Shown one piece after another: positions 2,355-22,967 of a stretch of 37,119 nt of DNA. Positions within the stretch are counted from its first letter, which is position 1, and every line of letters begins with the position of its first letter. A program made the position numbers and the translations under genes. Location: the IMG/VR virus record IMGVR_UViG_3300029159_000013, positions 1 to 37,119 of that record. One strand, given 5' to 3'. The notes under the pieces are model-generated. The model did not search any database. It was not told the origin of the DNA and was given only the letters and a program-made list of their open reading frames with translations. The DNA is from a virus.

Positions 2355-3512
2355 CTAAAAATCATCATAGCGAAAATCTTTTAGCAACGTATTAACTGGG
2401 GTGTAAACTTTTTCACGGGCATAATTTCTGCCTAAATACTCATTAGAATCTACTAGTTCTCGTAGTTTCGCTTGGTTTGCTCTTACTTTCTGTTTCCATT
2501 GCTTGGCATTGTCAGTATGATCTAATGCTTCGGAAACCATTTGATTCTTTTTAAATTTGACTACTTGGCGCTCTAATTGCCGTTGACGTTTCGTCAATTC
2601 AGCAACTTTTTCATTTTCCTTTGCATCAATTTTAGGTTGATTATTTGTATTGATACCAGGGATAAAAGGAATGTGTAAATGATTGCAGTTAATCCCTCTA
2701 TGCCCGCCAGCAGTTCCATATTCTGCGCCCCAATAAGGGTCGTAAATACTCTTATACTTTTCATTACTTGAAACAGATTCACGTAAATCGGCAACGTGTC
2801 CTTGAATCTTAGAACAAGCTTTTCTAGCCCCCATATGGCTAGTGACCAGTACCGTGTGAACGTCATACTCGCTCATACGGTCTTTTCGTAACTTATCATA
2901 GGTGTTACCTAATGTAGACTTTAAAACGGTTCGAACGTAACGTTCCAAGCTCCACGTATGACCGCCTTTATCTACAAATGTTGACTTAATCCCTTTCTGT
3001 GCCCAACTTTGTATAGTACGTTCTAACGCTTCGTCAAATGTAAATAACCCGCTGTTAAATGCAGCGACTGTCTTATTAATGATTTCATTGTACATTTGGC
3101 TGGTGGCTGTTCCATAACCGAAGTTAGTGGATAACAACGTTTGATTTACATAGTTGTTAATATCAGACCACACTTGGTCGTGATAGGCTTTCATAATATT
3201 GTCTAAATCTGTTGGCATAGGCTTTGGATCATAAGGTAATTCTTTATCAATATCTTTTACAATTTTTTGCCCGGTACTTTCAAACATTCGCTCTATTTCA
3301 GATTCAGCAATTCCTGTTACTTGAGAAATGACTTTTGCGGTTTCTTTGTTAAACAAATGTAACTCTTGAAGCTTTTCTCTTTGCCAATCTAAAATATTCT
3401 CGTTACCGTTTTTTAAACGCTTAGCGATGATTCGTATTAATTCGCCCTCTAACGATTGGTAGAGGTGTGACATATTAGAGGACCATAAATCTAATTGATG
3501 AGGCGTAATCAT
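2355..3512 (-). CDS. Minor head / head-morphogenesis protein, SPP1 gp7 / Mu F family.
   Basis: Sits immediately after portal. Contains a Mu-F-like core (HRGINCNH) and a C-terminal coiled coil. Confidence 0.65.
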   Translation of the reverse strand: MITPHQLDLWSSNMSHLYQSLEGELIRIIAKRLKNGNENILDWQREKLQELHLFNKETAKVISQVTGIAESEIERMFESTGQKIVKDIDKELPYDPKPMPTDLDNIMKAYHDQVWSDINNYVNQTLLSTNFGYGTATSQMYNEIINKTVAAFNSGLFTFDEALERTIQSWAQKGIKSTFVDKGGHTWSLERYVRTVLKSTLGNTYDKLRKDRMSEYDVHTVLVTSHMGARKACSKIQGHVADLRESVSSNEKYKSIYDPYWGAEYGTAGGHRGINCNHLHIPFIPGINTNNQPKIDAKENEKVAELTKRQRQLERQVVKFKKNQMVSEALDHTDNAKQWKQKVRANQAKLRELVDSNEYLGRNYAREKVYTPVNTLLKDFRYDDF

Positions 3513-5026: not shown

Positions 5027-6316
5027 CTAGGCGATATAGGTTTTATAAAAGTAATTATTACCATACCTTGCTTCATCAAGTGCATGATTATATTTATCTA
5101 CGGGCAATCCATTGTCATTTCTCACATACATAGAGATTTCTTTTTCAAAATTATAGTGGTCAAATTCTTCTCCACATTCTAAAACTATAAATTGGCCACT
5201 TATCATGGTGTTTTGTAGTCGTTCTATTCCAACCTCTATCTTTAAACCATTACTTGAAACTTTATCGGAGCTATTGTTATCAGCTTTATCTGTAATAATC
5301 CCTATTAAGTCAAGCTCAGAACGTAACGTTTTACAGGCAGGATCGACAAAGAAATAATTCCAGTGTGGCAAATGGTTCCATTTTGTATAACACCACTCAA
5401 CAAACTGTTTAATCTCTTTTGCATAAATTGACATCGCTTTTGTTTCTCCCGTATCCGTTCCGCTATGATAGTAGTTTGCTAAACGATACAGATAAAATTT
5501 CCCAGCATAGAAGGTGACAACCCAAAATGCACAGGTAGTTGCATCAGCTTGGCCACCATCAGCAGTAAAAAACGTTTCAATGATGTTTCCTTTTATTTCG
5601 GTTGCCTTGTTGTTCTTACCGAACATCGAGTAAATAACACCTTGTGGTAGCACTCTATGACCATACCAGTCACGTTCTAAAAGATATTCGCTACTTGATA
5701 ACTCATCGTATAACTGCTGCTTTCTTGATTCACTTAAGATTGGATTATCATCTGGTGTCCAATGACGAAATAAAAAACGTCCTGATTTCTCAAAACGTTC
5801 TAACAATTCTAAATTAGGGTGATTCGGTGCTGGCGGATTCTGTTCGCCTAAATGATAGCGCCATTCTGCAGCAAAAGTACGTCTAAAGCACTCATTAATG
5901 AAATCTTTATGCAGCAAGTTAAATTCTAAGAAAGTAACTGAGCCTAACGACATACCCGTAATAGCACCAACCGAATTGATTTTGCCGCCGCCTTTGTAAT
6001 AAATCTTTTTTTCTCCGTTAGGTGCATATAAAAGCAAATGGTCCCCATGCTCATCATGTCGAATATCTGAAACACCATCAAAGATATGCATTAAGCCTAA
6101 ACCGTCACCGTCCATAAACATTCGGAAAGCTTGTTCTTGATTATAAGCAGTCACAAGATGGTTCTGGTCTGGTGAGCGTAAATAGAAGTCTGCCATTTTA
6201 AATATATCACTGGTGGTTTTTCCGCTACGAGGAGTGCCTTCGTTTAGTTCAAAGGTTACTTTACTTGTATCATAATTGATATTTGCCACTTGCTTATCAC
6301 TAAAATTAATTGCCAT
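5027..6316 (-). CDS. terL: Terminase large subunit.
   Basis: Walker A motif GTPRSGKTT near the N-terminus. 429 aa. Overlaps terS. Confidence 0.85.
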   Translation of the reverse strand: MAINFSDKQVANINYDTSKVTFELNEGTPRSGKTTSDIFKMADFYLRSPDQNHLVTAYNQEQAFRMFMDGDGLGLMHIFDGVSDIRHDEHGDHLLLYAPNGEKKIYYKGGGKINSVGAITGMSLGSVTFLEFNLLHKDFINECFRRTFAAEWRYHLGEQNPPAPNHPNLELLERFEKSGRFLFRHWTPDDNPILSESRKQQLYDELSSSEYLLERDWYGHRVLPQGVIYSMFGKNNKATEIKGNIIETFFTADGGQADATTCAFWVVTFYAGKFYLYRLANYYHSGTDTGETKAMSIYAKEIKQFVEWCYTKWNHLPHWNYFFVDPACKTLRSELDLIGIITDKADNNSSDKVSSNGLKIEVGIERLQNTMISGQFIVLECGEEFDHYNFEKEISMYVRNDNGLPVDKYNHALDEARYGNNYFYKTYIA

Positions 6317-7151
6317 CGCTCACACCTCGTGATTTTACTTCTAACAAGGCTTCTAGCAATTCATTAGCTTTACCTCCAGCGGTTAACTTATCAGCCTTAT
6401 TCGTAAGTATTTTCGCTTCTGCTTGAGCTTTTTCAGTTTGCGCTTGTTTTAATTCATCAGTAGCAATATACTTCATCAACTCACTCATAGCCTTTTGCTT
6501 ATCGTAAAGCTTAACTGATACACCGTCTTTACCTTTTTTAACTTCCTGAATCAATGTACCGTCAACCTCGTTCGAATCTTTAAGAGAGACATTTGAAACT
6601 TTGTATGTTTTTACTTCGCCTGTTTCTTCGTCTATAACCTCTTCACCATTAATATCTTTAAACGGATATTCATCATAACCAAATTCTGTAAAATCGGTAA
6701 TATCGGCAAATGCTTGCTTAACATACTCTTGTATCAAGTCTTTAATATCCACAAACACATCTTGTTGCAACTCTGCTTTTAAACGGTGCAACTCTTTTTT
6801 TATGCGATCTTTTGCTAGCAACCTAATGCTATTGGCTCTAGCTGAATTATAGCCACATCCGTATGCTTGTTGATATGCCTTAGTGGCGTTAAAATGCTGT
6901 AAATAAAATAAACAGAACATTTTCTGTTGCTCTGTTAAAGCATCATTCTCTATAACGGGTTGCGACTCTTTTTTGTGTGCAACCTTTTTCTTTTTGGTTG
7001 CAACCTCTTTAGGAGTCGCGTTCCATTTGCGAGATTTCCAAGACTTCACGGTGTTAATAGATACATCGTATTTATCTGCTATATCTTTATACTTCATACC
7101 ATTTTTATAATTCTCATATGCTAAGTCCCATTTCTGCACACCCAACGCCAC
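6306..7151 (-). CDS. terS: Terminase small subunit, N-terminal HTH. True start probably the TTG/GTG at 7145-7151.
   Basis: HTH sequence KYKDIADKYDVSINTVKSWKSRK. AGGAGG RBS at 7153-7158. Directly upstream of terL. Confidence 0.75.
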   Translation of the reverse strand: MALGVQKWDLAYENYKNGMKYKDIADKYDVSINTVKSWKSRKWNATPKEVATKKKKVAHKKESQPVIENDALTEQQKMFCLFYLQHFNATKAYQQAYGCGYNSARANSIRLLAKDRIKKELHRLKAELQQDVFVDIKDLIQEYVKQAFADITDFTEFGYDEYPFKDINGEEVIDEETGEVKTYKVSNVSLKDSNEVDGTLIQEVKKGKDGVSVKLYDKQKAMSELMKYIATDELKQAQTEKAQAEAKILTNKADKLTAGGKANELLEALLEVKSRGVSDGN

Positions 7152-7287
7152 CTCCTAATTAATTTTATGTAAATGTGCGACAGATACATTAATACCTGTT
7201 ATACTCTTTATATGGTAGTACTCCTTTTTTAAAAGCTTGAGTTCAGAGATTACAATCTATCTTAATTTTGACACTAACGCTACCTAG

Positions 7288-7317
7288 CCACTAGACCCAT
7301 AATCTAGTGGTTTTTTT
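7288..7317 (+). terminator. Rho-independent terminator on the plus strand.
   Basis: CCACTAG-N9-CTAGTGG stem followed by T7. Confidence 0.6.
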
Positions 7318-7323
7318 ACGTAC

Positions 7324-7356
7324 AAAAAAAGACCACTCATTTTTATTGAGTAGTCT
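7324..7356 (-). terminator. Rho-independent terminator ending the early minus-strand transcript. Together with 7288..7317 it forms a bidirectional pair.
   Basis: GACCACTCA-N8-TGAGTAGTC stem followed by T7 on the minus strand. Confidence 0.55.
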
Positions 7357-7527
7357 AAAGATTTATATTAGACTGCCTAGCCAATCTAACACTTATTTAA
7401 CAATACTAGGTTGCTAGCCACTTTATCCTGTTTCCGCAGGCTGGCTAATTCTGAAAGGAGGTGAACCGATCGTTAAAATAAGAAACATTTATTGACGATT
7501 TTTTTATTTAAGTAGCATAGCTACTTA

Positions 7528-7601
7528 TTGACGTGACAGGAGTCGAACCTGCATGTACTTGATTGAAAACCAACCGCTCTCACAAATTGAGCTACACGCC
7601 A
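7528..7601 (-). tRNA. tRNA-like cloverleaf with predicted anticodon UUC (Glu). No encoded CCA. One G.G mismatch at pair 27:43.
   Basis: Folded by eye. Acceptor stem TGGCGTG/CACGTCA has 7 bp. D-arm GCTC..GAGC. Anticodon arm GTTGG-TTTTCAA-TCAAG with U33 and A37. T-arm GCAGG-TTCGACT-CCTGT. Confidence 0.5.
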
Positions 7602-8179
7602 TACCAGAAGGAGCTACCTCCTAGCAATTGCTAATAAATCAAATTAACCTTTACACACTCTCGTCAGAATGTTTTCCCATCAGGACGTAGCTTTCGCAGA
7701 CTTTCACGGCTAAAATGATTATGTCACTGGCAAGGATTTGCACCTTGGTATGGTCTATATTCCACCACAGTGACCGATCAATCAAACACCAGCAAAAACA
7801 ATTGATCAAGTTTATCCTAAACGTACCTAGCTGCTACTCTATGAGTTTAGGAATTGCTCTCGTGCGTAAGCAGCTGCCGCAGAGTTCTGGTTAGTGTCAT
7901 ATCTTCAGATGCTGGGCTAAAATACCGCGCCTAGCCTCGCTTACTACGCTTTACCTTGCGTAAGGTAGTTACTGCATCTCTAGTAACTATTTGTCACTTG
8001 CAAACCTGTAGAAAAAAAGAGAAGGCTCTTCACCTCCCCTCTAAGAGAACGTATCAGTTTGCGAGTGATAGTGTGATCAGTGTTAGCAACGAGATAATAT
8101 TTATTTTTGATTTCCTTACACTTCTCACACTACTAATTTACCATGTGAAATAACCTCGATAGTGCACAAATAGTGCAAA

Positions 8180-8599
8180 TTATATATCTAAATTTAATTC
8201 TTTTGCGATTTCTTCAAAAAATATTCTTTGTAATTCGAAGGCCTTTCTTCTACTACAAAATATTTTCCCTTGATCAATTAATCCTTGCATAGTGAATCTA
8301 GGCCGTTTTTTAAAATGAAGTTCTTGAATGATAGTGATGGTATCCTCACACGATTCACTAAGCACTTTGTCAATGATGCGTTTATTCCGTTCTAAGCTTG
8401 CTAGCCGCCTGTCTTGTTCAATCGTAATAAGTAAATTGGCAGCAGCTTCATTATTTCCGTGTGATCCTTTAATGCCACTGTTCAAATCACTTTCTCTAAA
8501 TGGATAACGTAATTCTTCTTCGCGTTGCCGAATATAGTCATCGGTTTTATAATAGTCCCCTAAAATATCTTTGATATAGTTAAATGTTGATGTCCGCAA
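8180..8599 (-). CDS. arpU: ArpU-family late-gene transcriptional regulator (sigma-like).
   Basis: 139 aa, the last early gene before terS. The sequence pattern resembles ArpU / TIGR01637-type phage activators. Confidence 0.55.
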   Translation of the reverse strand: MRTSTFNYIKDILGDYYKTDDYIRQREEELRYPFRESDLNSGIKGSHGNNEAAANLLITIEQDRRLASLERNKRIIDKVLSESCEDTITIIQELHFKKRPRFTMQGLIDQGKIFCSRRKAFELQRIFFEEIAKELNLDI

Positions 8600-21458: not shown

Positions 21459-22808
21459 ATGCTAAAGAGAGCAGCGTTATACATTAGGGTTTCTACTGAT
21501 CAACAAGCAAAACACGGGGATAGTTTAGACGCACAAATAGCTACTTTAAAAGATTATGTAAGTACTCAAGACAATTTGACAATCATTGACACGTATATTG
21601 ATGACGGCATTTCAGGACAAAAATTGTACCGCGATGAATTTCAACGCTTATTAGAAGATATAAAAAAGAACAGAATAGATATTATTTTGTTTACCAAATT
21701 AGATCGATGGTTTAGAAATTTACGTCATTACTTAAATATTCAAGAAATATTAGATAATTCTGGCGTAACATGGCTTGCCGTTTCACAACCATTTTTCAAT
21801 ACTGATACTGCTTATGGGCGTTCCTTTGTTAATCAGTCAATGAGTTTTGCTGAATTAGAAGCACAAATGGCATCTGAACGTATCAAAGCAGTATTTGAAA
21901 ACAAAATTAGAAAGGGAGAAGTGGTAACTGGTAGCGTTCCTTTTGGTTATAAAATCTGTGATAAGAAGTTAATACCTAACGAAAATGCACCTATAGCAAA
22001 AGACATTTTTAAACATTATTCTATTCACAACAGTATACGCCTAACTGTTGAATATCTATTCAATGAATATGATATTACAAGAAGTTCTCGAACAATCAAG
22101 CACATGTTAAGGAATAGAAAATATATAGGTGAAGTTTCTGGTAACAAAAATTATTGTCCTCCCATAGTAGATAAGGAAACCTTTGAGAAGGTTCAAAATC
22201 TATTAGATAAAAATATTTCATCTATAGCAAAACGTACTTATATCTTTTCAGGACTGGTAGTATGTAGTTGTTGCGGTAAAAAAATGACTGGACGTTATCG
22301 AAAAAGAAAATATATTAAAAAAGATGGCACAGTGATGTATTATACAAAAAAAGTATACCGTTGTAACGGAAACACTTATAAAAGAAATAAATGCCCAAAT
22401 AAGATAAATATAGCTGAAGAGATACTTGAAGAGTATTTATTAAACAACATTAAAGCAGACGCGGAAAACTTTGAAGCTAAACAGAAGAAAATAGCAGTTT
22501 CTGCTCCTGAAAAAAACAATAATTCAAAAATACTAAAGAAAATAGAACGGTTAAAAAAAGCGTATCTTAATGAGGTTATAAGTTTAGACGAATATAAGAA
22601 AGATAGAAAAGAGCTTGAACAGATGATGATTCAAGTCAAGCCTAAGGAAACTATAGTATTTAAATCAAATTGGTTTAACAAAAATATAGAAAGTACTTAT
22701 CGTGATTTCGATGAAGAAGAAAAAAGATTTGTTTGGAGATCAGTACTTAAAAACTTAATTGTAGACCCTCATAGCAAAATAACAATTAATTTTTTAACAA
22801 AAAATTAG
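21459..22808 (+). CDS. int: Large serine recombinase (integrase).
   Basis: N-terminal resolvase catalytic motif AALYIRVSTDQQ. 449 aa with Cys-rich and coiled-coil C-terminal domains. Confidence 0.85.
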   Translation: MLKRAALYIRVSTDQQAKHGDSLDAQIATLKDYVSTQDNLTIIDTYIDDGISGQKLYRDEFQRLLEDIKKNRIDIILFTKLDRWFRNLRHYLNIQEILDNSGVTWLAVSQPFFNTDTAYGRSFVNQSMSFAELEAQMASERIKAVFENKIRKGEVVTGSVPFGYKICDKKLIPNENAPIAKDIFKHYSIHNSIRLTVEYLFNEYDITRSSRTIKHMLRNRKYIGEVSGNKNYCPPIVDKETFEKVQNLLDKNISSIAKRTYIFSGLVVCSCCGKKMTGRYRKRKYIKKDGTVMYYTKKVYRCNGNTYKRNKCPNKINIAEEILEEYLLNNIKADAENFEAKQKKIAVSAPEKNNNSKILKKIERLKKAYLNEVISLDEYKKDRKELEQMMIQVKPKETIVFKSNWFNKNIESTYRDFDEEEKRFVWRSVLKNLIVDPHSKITINFLTKN

Positions 22809-22860: not shown

Positions 22861-22894
22861 CCTCGTTCCCTAGAAGAGAGCGAGGTTTTTTTAT
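22861..22894 (+). terminator. Intrinsic terminator after int. The hairpin has T or A runs on both sides, so it may act in both directions.
   Basis: ACCTCG-N15-CGAGGT followed by T7. Confidence 0.6.
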
Positions 22895-22967
22895 GGACCA
22901 TACAGGACTCGAACCTGTGACCGAACGGTTATGAGCCGTTTGCTCTAACCAACTGAGCTAATGGTCC
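22894..22967 (-). tRNA. tRNA with anticodon CAU, elongator type. Sequence is Ile2 (lysidine)-like. No encoded CCA.
   Basis: Perfect cloverleaf: acceptor GGACCAT/ATGGTCC, D-arm GCTC-AGTTGGTTA-GAGC, anticodon arm AACGG-CTCATAA-CCGTT, T-arm ACAGG-TTCGAGT-CCTGT. G1:C72 is paired and the anticodon stem lacks the three G-C pairs, so this is not an initiator. Confidence 0.8.

What the first reader, a model, noticed from the sequence alone, without database searches (positions are those of the whole stretch)
7152..8179. Unusually long (about 1 kb) structured non-coding region between arpU and terS containing a tRNA-Glu(UUC)-like cloverleaf
No credible ORF lies between the late activator gene and terS. 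The region contains (i) a facing pair of intrinsic terminators (7288..7317 plus strand, 7324..7356 minus strand), (ii) a 74-nt sequence that folds as a tRNA with a 7-bp acceptor stem, canonical D and T arms and anticodon UUC but a G.G mismatch at 27:43 (7528..7601, minus strand), and (iii) a consensus SD-like AAAGGAGGTGA (7454..7464) with no start codon after it. A CTAGCCA motif recurs three times (7283, 7377, 7413). Imperfect inverted repeats GGAGGTGAA (7457) / TTCACCTCC (8028) flank about 570 bp that include the tRNA-like element, and AGTGCAMAAT is tandemly duplicated at 8161..8180. This is also where the pac/cos site and the ArpU-dependent late promoter should be. The tRNA-like element lies at the 3' end of the early transcript. 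A plus-strand terminator with no upstream plus gene suggests a short antisense or ncRNA starting around 7200.
Basis: seen in the sequence. Interest (0 to 1): 0.6.

Follow-up and report, generated by a model that had tools for sequence, protein, structure and literature searches.

The report
Phage late-leader tRNA and ncRNA cassette
The 1-kb "empty" gap in front of the DNA-packaging genes of this Enterococcus phage is a block of RNA genes: a real but unusual tRNA, a decayed tRNA-like relic, two conserved RNA segments of unknown role and a small antisense RNA, all lying behind the late-gene promoter.

Summary
ARAGORN and Rfam (55.5 bits) call a tRNA(UUC) at 7528..7601(-). No ORF in the gap matches any protein family. 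The facing terminators, the SD-like motif and the repeats are all there.

The interpretation needs revision. The upstream regulator is RinA-family, not ArpU-family. Read on the minus strand, the gap contains, in order:
- two activator repeats with an extended -10
- a structured leader with a terminator-like hairpin
- a 219-nt conserved but unstructured segment B
- a 52-nt degenerate tRNA-like relic
- segment D
- the tRNA
- a terminator

More than 50 Enterococcus phage contigs share this cassette. Sister copies carry the same tRNA body with UUU, UUC, UCG or ACG anticodons.

Published phiFL2A data show that the repeats drive terS expression through this region. The 5' end mapped in that study lies 3 nt past the tRNA, which I read as a processing site.

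The relic belongs to a covarying tRNA-Leu-like family with hypervariable inserts. The family is absent from Rfam 15.

The region is not ROOL or GOLLD. The functions of B, D and the antisense RNA are unknown.

The parts
8180..8599 (-). It is RinA family, within the Ltr superfamily.
   Evidence: TIGR01636 phage_rinA 109.7 bits against a cutoff of 31.9. Also phrog_36 and the Alt-like phrog_2198. No significant similarity to phiFL2A ArpU.
8159..8177 (-). Two direct repeats, TGCACTAT-N3-TGCACTAT, at 11-bp spacing, starting 3 nt after the regulator's stop codon. Presumed RinA-type binding sites.
   Evidence: Unique in the window. Repeat type covaries with the regulator's C-terminal sequence in 45 loci, including the chimera L096. 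The equivalent repeats in phiFL2A are required for terS expression and bind ArpU (PMC3753634).
8135..8143 (-). Extended -10, TGGTAAATT, with no -35 hexamer. The inferred late promoter, with a predicted start near 8126-8128.
   Evidence: Read from the sequence. The same layout (repeats, about 18 nt, then TGnTAnnnT) occurs with all four repeat types. The start site was not mapped.
7994..8068 (-). Structured leader. A 12-bp long-range helix (8068..8057 with 8005..7994) encloses a terminator-like hairpin (8042..8016) followed by U7.
   Evidence: Terminator scan. MFE -26.7 kcal/mol, z -3.13. 3 of the 12 helix pairs show compensatory changes among 14 variants. Analogous helix-plus-hairpin leaders occur in other lineages.
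7775..7993 (-). Segment B: a conserved non-coding block whose 3' 140 nt are almost invariant. Function unknown.
   Evidence: Present at full length in 58 loci, all close Enterococcus phages. 28 sequence variants. 0 compensatory pairs among 54 predicted pairs. Folding z +0.40. Absent from some sister cassettes.
7722..7774 (-). Degenerate tRNA-like minihelix: a 7-bp acceptor stem and a T arm, with no anticodon arm. It is a relic of the tRNA-Leu-like 'frame' RNA family.
   Evidence: The covariance model built from 57 frames from other loci gives one hit in the window: 41.9 bits, E 4e-12. The D stem, G18G19 and the closing G:C pair are broken. Sister phages carry full frames with 30-230-nt inserts at the same position.
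7602..7721 (-). Segment D: a helix-enclosed domain, then a conserved GGAGGUAGCUCCUUC hairpin (7621..7607) 5 nt before the tRNA.
   Evidence: 51 loci. z -2.29. The pre-tRNA hairpin recurs in other lineages with compensatory variants (GAGGG..CCCTC, GAGGG..CCTCT).
7528..7601 (-). tRNA with anticodon UUC on a Lys-type body. It has G3.U70, a conserved G27.G43 mismatch, no encoded CCA, and a private G18-to-U change.
   Evidence: ARAGORN. Rfam 55.5 bits. Differs from the sister tRNA-Lys(UUU) copies by A31G and U36C. Anticodons across cassettes: UUC 16, UCG 15, UUU 10, ACG 8, 8-nt loops 6.
7357..7527 (-). 3' trailer. It holds a conserved post-tRNA hairpin (7526..7510), the CGTCAAT box, and a variable module that includes UCACCUCCUUUC (7466..7455).
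   Evidence: 7530..7484 is conserved in nearly all cassettes. 7484..7340 is shared only with L023, L033, L087, L038 and L039.
7323..7356 (-). Intrinsic terminator that ends the RNA cassette: a 10-bp stem followed by U7.
   Evidence: Terminator scan. A terminator occupies the same position in sister cassettes.
7177..7318 (+). Candidate antisense small-RNA gene. Extended -10 TGTTATACT (7197..7205), RNA from about 7212 to 7317. Its 5' GGUAGUACUCCUUUU pairs with GCUACC (7279..7284), followed by a terminator hairpin (7288..7310) and U7.
   Evidence: Promoter and terminator scans. 25 of 26 distinct homologous copies keep the extended -10 at 55-98 nt, against 5% expected. Compensatory changes in both helices. 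z -3.06. Single copy in the window.
6306..7151 (-). terS, the first late gene. The listed GTG start overlaps its own SD, so the true start is probably a few codons further in.
   Evidence: phrog_2606 at 4.8e-83 and PF03592. Sequence read.

Best explanation
The gap is the RNA-rich 5' leader of the late operon, plus one convergent small-RNA gene.

Proposed sequence of events:
1. After induction, the RinA-type activator binds the two repeats that follow its own stop codon and fires a -35-less, extended -10 promoter (inferred here; shown for the equivalent repeats of phiFL2A).
2. The transcript runs through a structured leader, segment B, a decayed tRNA-like minihelix, segment D and a tRNA.
3. RNase P and RNase Z cut at the tRNA, and probably at the minihelix. 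This releases the tRNA and the flanking RNAs (inferred; one published 5' end fits).
4. Polymerases that pass the leader hairpin and the terminator at 7356..7330 continue into terS.

The tRNA is the payload with the clearest role. Sister phages keep the same acceptor and T arms but swap the anticodon arm (UUU, UUC, UCG, ACG). All Lys/Glu-type copies keep a weakened anticodon stem. This fits a substitute tRNA that escapes host tRNA-cleaving defences better than it fits codon supply (inferred).

From the opposite strand, a constitutive-looking extended -10 promoter makes an RNA of about 105 nt. It is complementary to the late transcript between the cassette terminator and terS, and it probably damps leaky late expression (inferred).
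For: - The tRNA is called by ARAGORN and by Rfam.
- The cassette is conserved at 83-89% and is never annotated as coding in phage records. It occurs in 49+ viral contigs.
- The cassette is modular: B, the insert in the tRNA-like frame, and D come and go as units.
- Repeat type tracks the regulator's C-terminus, including a natural chimera.
- PMC3753634, on phiFL2A, which is my locus L002 with the same cassette:
  - The repeats are essential for terS::blaZ expression and bind ArpU.
  - Foreign repeat blocks fused to the phiFL2A intergenic region transfer specificity, so the promoter travels with the repeats about 650 bp upstream of terS.
  - A terminator in this region blocks read-through when no activator is present.
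- Their 5'-RACE end lies 118 bp upstream of the terS ATG. That is L002 position 2548, 3 nt past the tRNA discriminator base at 2551. No promoter-like sequence lies in front of it.
- Both the tRNA and the minihelix are followed by A-UAA and encode no CCA.
- Anticodon variation on a constant body, with a conserved G27.G43.
- Phage rescue tRNAs with altered anticodon loops or stems are documented (PMC10264068, PMC11464382, PMC12445682).
- Antisense RNA.
Against: - There are no transcript data for this phage. The start site near 8127 is predicted only.
- Two strong terminators lie between the proposed promoter and terS, so read-through needs an explanation (see novel case).
- Segment B has neither thermodynamic nor covariation support for structure.
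- The window's tRNA carries G18-to-U in an otherwise universal position. Its identity is ambiguous: a Lys-type body, a UUC anticodon and G3.U70. It may be poorly functional or mischarged.
- The minihelix has lost the family's invariant features.
- The RACE end is 3 nt away from the canonical RNase Z site, not at it.
- The anti-defence role is an analogy only. No E. faecalis nuclease target is known to me.
Confidence: 0.6

Rival explanations
1. The gap is a decaying tRNA array. Apart from the promoter and the terminators, everything in it (B, minihelix, D, perhaps the tRNA too) is relic sequence kept by recent common descent and has no function of its own.
For: - The minihelix has lost G18G19, its D stem and the closing G:C pair.
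- The window's tRNA has G18-to-U.
- Some sister 'tRNAs' are not called by any predictor (L012, L031).
- B shows no structure signal.
- Some phages lack B, and some lack D and the minihelix.
Against: - The 140-nt core of B is essentially invariant, while the adjacent 85 nt, the leader and the trailer differ by 10-30% with indels.
- D and the pre-tRNA hairpin are kept across lineages with compensatory changes.
- The cassette persists in more than 50 contigs with four different regulator alleles and several terS types.
Confidence: 0.15
2. The leader is mainly a cis-regulatory device. The terminator-like hairpin and the cassette terminator gate late expression. Either the activator (like lambda Q) or an RNA element (leader or B core, like HK022 put) makes RNA polymerase resistant to termination. 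The tRNA is a passenger.
For: - Two strong hairpin-plus-U7 terminators lie between the only activator-dependent promoter block and terS. The same holds in phiFL2A.
- In phiFL2A, read-through from Pcad is blocked without the activator, yet expression occurs with it, and also with foreign activators plus their cognate repeats (PMC3753634).
- An invariant B core would fit contact with a conserved host machine.
Against: - Cassettes that lack B still have both terminators.
- No pause or nut-like element was identified.
- Leaky termination of a very strong promoter is not excluded.
- This rival is compatible with the best explanation rather than exclusive of it.
Confidence: 0.15
3. The roughly 450 nt upstream of the tRNA is a ROOL- or GOLLD-type large ornate RNA. 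Those RNAs occur in Lactobacillales prophages next to tRNAs, and E. faecalis ROOL is 580 nt.
For: The context matches: a prophage, next to a tRNA, in Enterococcus (PMC5737381, PMC12990946, PMC12191101). The conserved block 7489..8068 is 580 bp long.
Against: - Rfam found no ROOL or GOLLD match even at E up to 10 with lax filters on 1.15 kb, nor in 8+8 related loci.
- The ROOL model does work in this set-up: 262.9 bits on L079.
- The region is a mosaic of separable modules, and its largest block is unstructured.
Confidence: 0.02
4. A protein-coding gene that is frameshifted in this genome, or a small unannotated ORF, occupies the gap.
For: ORFs of 52-65 aa exist on both strands.
Against: - No PHROG or Pfam hits.
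- No CDS is annotated in any of 20 phage records.
- Indels of 1, 3, 10 and 150+ nt fall between relatives inside the conserved blocks.
Confidence: 0.02
5. The conserved core acts at the DNA level, as a pac or cos packaging site or another protein-binding site.
For: It lies just upstream of terS. Its sequence is extremely conserved without any RNA-structure signal.
Against: The same B core sits in front of unrelated terS or downstream genes: the window's PF03592 terS, phiFL2A gp34, and the phiFL3B methyltransferase side. A pac site should covary with its terminase. B is absent from other phages of the group.
Confidence: 0.04

Closest known systems
Ltr (RinA/ArpU/LtrC) repeat-dependent late promoters of Gram-positive temperate phages (Quiles-Puchalt et al. 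2013, PMC3753634)
   Same: Direct 7-8-nt repeats lie immediately distal to the regulator's stop codon. Repeat specificity is tied to the regulator's C-terminus. A terminator sits in the regulator-terS gap. terS is the first late gene.
   Different: Here, and in phiFL2A, about 1 kb of RNA genes and two terminators separate the repeats from terS. The published work did not notice the tRNA and read a 5' end 3 nt past it as the transcription start.
Phage-encoded rescue tRNAs that evade tRNA-targeting defences (PMC10264068; T5 tRNA-Lys against PARIS, PMC11464382; tRNA-Thr against P2 OLD, PMC12445682)
   Same: A phage tRNA that is unlike host isoacceptors. The anticodon types are favoured nuclease targets (Lys UUU, Glu UUC, Arg). 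The anticodon stem is weakened. The anticodon arm turns over rapidly between sister phages.
   Different: This is a single tRNA in a temperate siphovirus, embedded in the late leader. No cognate defence system is known. The charging identity is uncertain.
ROOL and GOLLD large ncRNAs (Rfam RF03087; PMC5737381, PMC12286853)
   Same: Non-coding RNA in Lactobacillales phages, adjacent to tRNAs. One contig (L079) carries ROOL and a frame RNA in the same tRNA array.
   Different: There is no match to either covariance model. The region has a modular mosaic architecture instead of one ornate fold, and its main block is unstructured.
T4 tRNA-cluster stable RNAs, species 1 and 2 (rnaC, rnaD); from my own knowledge, not checked with tools
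   Same: Small stable RNAs of unknown function that are co-transcribed with phage tRNAs and matured by the tRNA-processing enzymes.
   Different: No sequence relation was tested. The T4 RNAs sit in an early/middle tRNA operon, not in the late leader.
tRNA mimics with replaced anticodon arms: the tmRNA tRNA-like domain, YrlA Y RNAs, and engineered 'tRNA scaffolds'; from my own knowledge
   Same: The frame family keeps the acceptor, D and T arms and replaces the anticodon and variable arms with another RNA domain.
   Different: Not detected as tmRNA by ARAGORN or as YrlA by Rfam. The D arm is tRNA-Leu-like, the T loop is UGCAAAU, and the acceptor/T stack is 13 bp. The window holds only a 52-nt relic with no insert.
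Phage cis-antisense RNAs (lambda OOP, P22 sar) and the convergent RNA pairs of type I toxin-antitoxin loci; from my own knowledge
   Same: A short RNA with its own promoter and intrinsic terminator, convergent with and fully complementary to a phage mRNA leader, sharing a back-to-back terminator pair.
   Different: The target is the late-operon leader just upstream of terS. No toxin ORF is present in the window. The family has a conserved 5' GGUAGCAACUCCUUUU and a variable middle.

Membership tests
tRNA (Rfam RF00005) | Cloverleaf scoring above the curated covariance-model threshold and called by a tRNA predictor | tested here: met
   55.5 bits against a threshold of 29, covering the full model (positions 1-71). 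ARAGORN calls tRNA-Glu(ttc).
tRNA (Rfam RF00005) | Universal tertiary nucleotides G18 and G19 in the D loop; T54, C56 and A58 in the T loop | tested here: inconclusive
   The T loop, UUCGACU, is canonical. The D loop is AAUUUGUGA, whereas 14 sister copies have AAUUGGUGA, so G18 is U in the window copy only.
tRNA (Rfam RF00005) | Aminoacylation and use in translation; amino-acid identity | not testable with these tools
   The body is Lys-type (it differs from the sister tRNA-Lys by A31G and U36C). G3.U70 is present. Identity cannot be inferred with confidence.
ROOL RNA (RF03087) | Match to the family covariance model (gathering score 99.1 bits) | tested here: not met
   No hit at E up to 10 on 7100..8250. 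Positive control: L079, 262.9 bits.
GOLLD RNA | Match to the family covariance model | tested here: not met
   No hit in the window or in 40+ related loci. No positive control was available.
Group I intron or self-cleaving ribozymes | Match to the Rfam models | tested here: not met
   No hits, despite CUGAUG.. and CUGACGAG strings in segment D.
ArpU family regulator (TIGR01637) | Score above the curated cutoff (43.1 bits) | tested here: not met
   The window protein does not hit TIGR01637. The phiFL2A protein does, at 131.5 bits.
RinA family regulator (TIGR01636) | Score above the curated cutoff (31.9 bits) | tested here: met
   109.7 bits over residues 1-135.
Ltr-dependent late promoter | [quoted passage not shown] | tested here: met
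   The repeats start 3 nt after the stop codon and are unique in the window. Covariation with the regulator allele is seen in 45 loci.
Ltr-dependent late promoter | Regulator binding and activator-dependent transcription start | not testable with these tools
   Shown only for phiFL2A, 80alpha, phi29 and phi55 (PMC3753634).
tRNA-Leu-like 'frame' RNAs (family defined here, model R1) | 7-bp acceptor stem, 6-bp T stem and UGCAAAU loop, scored by the covariance model | tested here: met
   41.9 bits, E 4e-12, the only hit in the window. The window copy was not in the training set. Family covariation: 97% of positions paired against 77% when shuffled, 0/500.
tRNA-Leu-like 'frame' RNAs (family defined here, model R1) | D arm GCGG-AAWRGGUAGA-CGC with G18G19; invariant closing G:C pair; an inserted domain of 30-230 nt | tested here: not met
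   In the window copy the D stem pairs are broken, GG is deleted, the closing pair is C.C, and there is no insert. It is therefore a degenerate relic, not a full member.
Intrinsic terminators | GC-containing hairpin followed by a U-run | tested here: met
   8042..8016(-), 7356..7330(-) and 7286..7312(+). 7 sites found against 1.0 expected.

The most novel reading that the evidence does not exclude
The 1-kb leader is an antitermination-plus-payload module. RNA polymerase that starts at the activator repeats becomes resistant to termination. This could happen because RinA/ArpU-type Ltr proteins act like lambda Q rather than as simple activators, or because the invariant core of segment B or the leader acts in cis like HK022 put RNA. 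That would explain how two strong terminators can sit between the only activator-dependent promoter and terS. The tRNA and the tRNA-like frames would then be payload RNAs cut out by RNase P and RNase Z. On this reading, the 'late promoter' start sites mapped by 5' RACE in this phage group are processing sites.
Probability: 0.25. Interest if true: 0.8.

Novelty: new variant of a known kind. Interest (0 to 1): 0.62.

Why it matters
1. It changes how the late switch of a well-studied group of Gram-positive phages is read. The activator's binding site and promoter lie about 1 kb upstream of terS, separated from it by terminators. The published start site in phiFL2A coincides with the end of an unnoticed tRNA.
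2. It shows a single-tRNA cassette whose anticodon arm is exchanged between otherwise near-identical phages. That pattern is expected for an arms race with tRNA-cleaving defences, here in the clinically relevant genus Enterococcus.
3. Following the 52-nt relic uncovered a covarying family of tRNA-Leu-like RNAs in Lactobacillales phages. These RNAs carry hypervariable inserts in place of the anticodon arm, sit next to tRNAs, and once share an array with ROOL. A second family surfaced as well: antisense small RNAs of about 100 nt with an anti-SD-like 5' end. Neither family is in Rfam 15 or in the searchable literature.

All of these points can be tested directly with an induced lysogen.

Tried and rejected
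- ROOL/GOLLD identity: rejected by Rfam, with a working positive control.
- Group I intron in the tRNA-like frame, and hammerhead-like strings in D: no Rfam support.
- Coding potential of the four ORFs in the gap: no family hits.
- Structure of segment B: RNAalifold on 16 variants gave 0 compensatory pairs, and the folding z-score is +0.40.
- Remote homologues of B and D among about 210 fetched loci (nhmmer): none outside the close Enterococcus group.
- Complementarity of the cassette RNA to the rest of the phage genome: only chance-level matches of 13 nt or less.
- CTAGCCA x3: enriched, but only the first copy lies in a conserved element.
- Literature searches for six-plus diagnostic sequence strings from B, the frame and the antisense RNA: no paper contains them.
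- The E. faecalis ROOL sequence could not be retrieved from supplements.
Full report
**What the window is.** It is a complete temperate Enterococcus faecalis siphophage of the phiFL2A/IME197 type.
- The only DNA matches to 7152..8179 are 20 Enterococcus phage records.
- The window also encodes a serine integrase, a CI-like repressor and an endolysin.
- Genes around the finding run on the minus strand. terS is 6306..7151 (phrog_2606, PF03592).
- The upstream regulator is 8180..8599. The phiFL2A protein is the true ArpU family member (TIGR01637), and the two proteins are not detectably similar.
- Both families belong to the Ltr superfamily of late activators (PMC3753634).

**Check of the observation.**
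- The tRNA sits at exactly 7528..7601(-) (ARAGORN; Rfam 55.5 bits).
- The facing terminators are confirmed.
- The SD-like AAAGGAGGTGA is at 7454..7464 with no ORF after it.
- The tandem AGTGCA(C)AAAT lies next to the regulator gene and is unique in the window.
- Two motifs are off by one base: TTCACCTCC is at 8029, and CTAGCCA is at 7284 and 7414.
- No ORF in the gap hits PHROGs or Pfam. No relative annotates a gene there.

**Anatomy, read 5' to 3' on the minus strand.**
1. Two 8-nt direct repeats at 11-bp spacing (8177..8159), starting 3 nt after the stop codon.
2. An extended -10, TGGTAAATT (8143..8135), with no -35 hexamer.
3. A leader (8068..7994) in which a 12-bp long-range helix encloses a terminator-like hairpin plus U7. 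Its folding z-score is -3.1, and 3 helix pairs show compensatory changes.
4. Segment B (7993..7775).
5. A 52-nt tRNA-like minihelix (7774..7723).
6. Segment D (7721..7602), ending in a GGAGGUAGCUCCUUC hairpin.
7. The tRNA (7601..7528).
8. A conserved hairpin and a variable trailer.
9. An intrinsic terminator (7356..7330 plus U7).
10. The region that overlaps a plus-strand small-RNA gene.
11. terS.

The block 7489..8068 is 83-89% identical in IME197, phiFL2A/B and others. Its core 21-mer occurs in 49 viral contigs.

**The promoter.** Four repeat types occur, always at an 11-bp period and always followed by an extended -10: TTGGCGG x3, TTAGGG x3, TGCACTAT x2 and GGGAATTT x2.
- Each repeat type goes with one regulator C-terminal sequence.
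- The natural chimera L096 has an ArpU type-1 N-terminus and a type-2-like C-terminus. It carries (G)TAGGG repeats.
- For phiFL2A (my locus L002, same cassette), Quiles-Puchalt et al. reported four relevant results:
  - The three repeats are indispensable for ArpU-dependent terS::blaZ expression.
  - The repeats bind ArpU in gel shifts.
  - Staphylococcal repeat blocks fused to the repeat-less phiFL2A intergenic region transfer activator specificity.
  - A terminator in the region blocks read-through when no activator is present.
- The activator-dependent promoter therefore travels with the repeats, about 650 bp upstream of the 5' end they mapped by RACE.
- That end is 'a G 118 bp upstream of the terS ATG', which is L002 position 2548. 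This is 3 nt past the discriminator base (2551) of the tRNA that Rfam places at 2551..2623. Their paper never mentions a tRNA.
- I read that end as a product of tRNA 3' maturation, not a transcription start. This is inference, but it is the simplest reading of their data together with this anatomy.

**The tRNA.** It is real by both predictors but atypical.
- It has U1:A72, G3.U70, a G27.G43 mismatch, no encoded CCA and a UUC anticodon.
- Across cassettes, the same acceptor and T arms carry UUC (16 loci), UCG (15), UUU (10), ACG (8), 8-nt loops (6), UUA (2) and UAU (2).
- The 'Glu' form differs from the Lys(UUU) form only by A31G and U36C, and L096 is an intermediate. It is therefore a Lys-type body with a mutated anticodon.
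- G27.G43 is present in every Lys/Glu-type copy, so it is a lineage trait.
- The window copy alone has G18-to-U.
- Rapid anticodon-arm turnover on a constant body, the anticodon types involved and the weakened anticodon stem all resemble phage rescue tRNAs that escape anticodon nucleases (PMC10264068), PARIS (PMC11464382) or OLD. For OLD, resistance comes from altered or shortened anticodon stems (PMC12445682). That role is inferred here, not shown.

**The minihelix and its family.** Sister phages carry a larger RNA at the same position. It has the same 5' GUCACUG-UG-GCGG-AAUAGGUAGA-CGC and the same 3' G-CAAGG-UGCAAAU-CCUUG-C-CAGUGAC, but with unrelated inserts of 30-230 nt where a tRNA's anticodon and variable arms would be.
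- A D-arm pattern search returned more than 120 viral loci. They split cleanly into two groups:
  - genuine 81-85-nt tRNA-Leu genes;
  - 'frames' with one extra invariant G:C pair (a 6-bp T stem and a 13-bp acceptor/T stack) and a UGCAAAU T loop.
- To avoid bias, I defined the 3' end only by the first TGCAAAT downstream, with no pairing required. The 57 distinct frames then show:
  - 97.0% paired positions, against 76.9% when shuffled and 32-41% when the register is slid;
  - 196 double-change positions, against 54 in the shuffled control;
  - 24 different acceptor strands, with 0/500 shuffles reaching the observed value.
- Frames occur in Lactobacillales genomes next to tRNAs, after late regulators, and inside the tRNA arrays of large phages. 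In one such array (L079) a frame sits alongside a bona fide ROOL.
- Neither Rfam nor ARAGORN recognises them.
- A covariance model built from these frames finds exactly one hit in the window, 7774..7722, at 41.9 bits. In that hit the D stem, G18G19 and the closing pair are broken, and there is no insert.
- The window copy is therefore a degenerate relic. It may still serve as an RNase P/Z cutting mark.

**Segments B and D.**
- Both exist only in the close Enterococcus group and are always full length.
- B's 3' 140 nt are almost invariant, while its 5' 85 nt vary and carry indels.
- B folds no better than shuffled sequence (z +0.40). None of its 54 predicted pairs covaries.
- Its conservation therefore calls for a sequence-level explanation: a protein or polymerase contact, or base-pairing to a target outside the phage. 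No target exists inside the phage.
- D is modestly structured (z -2.3). Its terminal hairpin is conserved across lineages with compensatory variants.
- Some cassettes lack B. Others fuse the frame's 5' half directly to the tRNA. The parts are therefore separable.

**The plus-strand RNA.** Read on the plus strand it contains:
- an extended -10 (window TGTTATACT, 7197..7205; also flagged by the promoter scan);
- a start near 7212;
- 5' (A)GGUAGC(A)ACUCCUUUU;
- a variable 45-70 nt;
- GCUACCUA, which pairs with the 5' end;
- the hairpin CCACUAGA/UCUAGUGG followed by a U-run.

Evidence for it:
- 25 of 26 distinct copies have the extended -10 at 55-98 nt, against 5% expected.
- Both helices show compensatory changes: UAGG/CCUA to UGGG/CCCA, and CCACUAG to CCGCUAG or CCGUUAG with matching partners.
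- The window copy has z -3.06 and is single.

The RNA is convergent with the late transcript and fully complementary to it just upstream of terS. A damping role on late expression is my inference.

**Mechanism, and what is shown.**
- Shown here: the tRNA call; the conservation and modularity of the cassette; family covariation for the frames, the leader helix and the antisense RNA; repeat-regulator covariation.
- Shown by others in a sister phage: the repeats are the activator site and drive terS through this region, and a terminator is present.
- Inferred: the start site; processing by RNase P and Z; the anti-defence role of the tRNA; the role of the antisense RNA.
- Unexplained: how polymerase passes two strong terminators, and what B and D do. 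The first puzzle motivates the antitermination reading given as the novel case.

**Comparison with known systems.** The region is not ROOL or GOLLD (tested, with a positive control), not a group I intron, and not a coding gene. It works like a phage tRNA operon fused to an Ltr-dependent late leader. The closest analogues are phage rescue tRNAs, the T4 tRNA-cluster stable RNAs, and tRNA mimics such as tmRNA or YrlA for the frames.

I rate it a new variant of a known kind. The tRNA is an ordinary category. The frame family, the antisense RNA family and the leader architecture appear to be undescribed.

**Limits.**
- All relatives of B and D are close, so the lack of covariation is weak evidence.
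- No expression data exist for this phage.
- The host-genome check of the tRNA was not run.
- E-values from my covariance model are rough.

Noticed in passing
L003, L012, L013, L031, L059-L096, L097-L222 (e.g. L110 83 nt, L061 91 nt, L080 276 nt): A family of tRNA-Leu-like 'frame' RNAs. The acceptor, D and T arms are constant but covary. The T stem has 6 bp and the T loop is UGCAAAU. Hypervariable inserts of 30-230 nt replace the anticodon arm. The same insert type recurs with different frames. They are found next to tRNAs in Lactobacillales phages and genomes, and are not in Rfam 15.
   Followed up: yes
L063, L067, L072, L074, L088 (downstream of the cassette tRNA or frame): Another conserved RNA-like element, AGCAACCGAGG...variable...GUGUAGGUUGCU (closing helix AGCAACC/GGUUGCU), follows the tRNA in non-faecalis lineages. 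It has no Rfam match and is absent from the window.
   Followed up: no
By my own knowledge, that matches the 3' end of 16S rRNA (anti-SD). It is complementary to the leader hairpin arm and to the terS SD. It is present only in the window-type trailer module (L023, L033, L087, L038, L039).
   Followed up: partly
L059, L068 (8-nt anticodon loop); L074, L083 (UUA); L076, L093 (UAU): Sister cassette tRNAs include copies with an 8-nt anticodon loop (ARAGORN 'tRNA-???(tt)'), a UUA anticodon (reads a stop codon), and UAU. This suggests frameshift- or suppressor-like variants, or decoys.
   Followed up: no
L002 2548 (phiFL2A): The published 5'-RACE 'transcription start' of the phiFL2A late operon (118 bp upstream of terS) lies 3 nt beyond the 3' end of an unannotated tRNA-Arg. 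It is probably a processing site.
   Followed up: yes
L079 2307..2894 and about 6263..6391: A bona fide ROOL RNA (262.9 bits) and a frame RNA lie in the same tRNA array of a 105-kb phage contig.
   Followed up: partly
L012 10640..10960: Type I toxin-antitoxin-like RNA hits (RatA 55 bits, rli28 143 bits, BsrG 47 bits) lie immediately beside that phage's copy of the conserved antisense-RNA element.
   Followed up: no
window 22894..22967 (-): A second, high-scoring tRNA-Met(CAU) (73 bits) has its own flanking terminator hairpins. It sits between the lysis-side small genes and the serine integrase gene (21459..22808).
   Followed up: partly
window 7137..7157 (-): The GTG listed as the terS start (7151) lies inside its own Shine-Dalgarno sequence, AGGAGGUG. 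The real start is probably the in-frame TTG (7145) or GTG (7139).
   Followed up: no
window 7284, 7377, 7414 (+): CTAGCCA occurs three times within 137 bp (7 in the window against 2.3 expected). The first copy is part of the antisense RNA. The other two lie in the variable trailer and may be remnants of further copies of that element, since other phages carry two copies.
   Followed up: partly
L096 (regulator gene and repeats): A natural chimeric ArpU has a type-1 N-terminal part and a type-2-like C-terminus, followed by four (G)TAGGG repeats. This is a field example of C-terminal domain and repeat co-exchange.
   Followed up: partly
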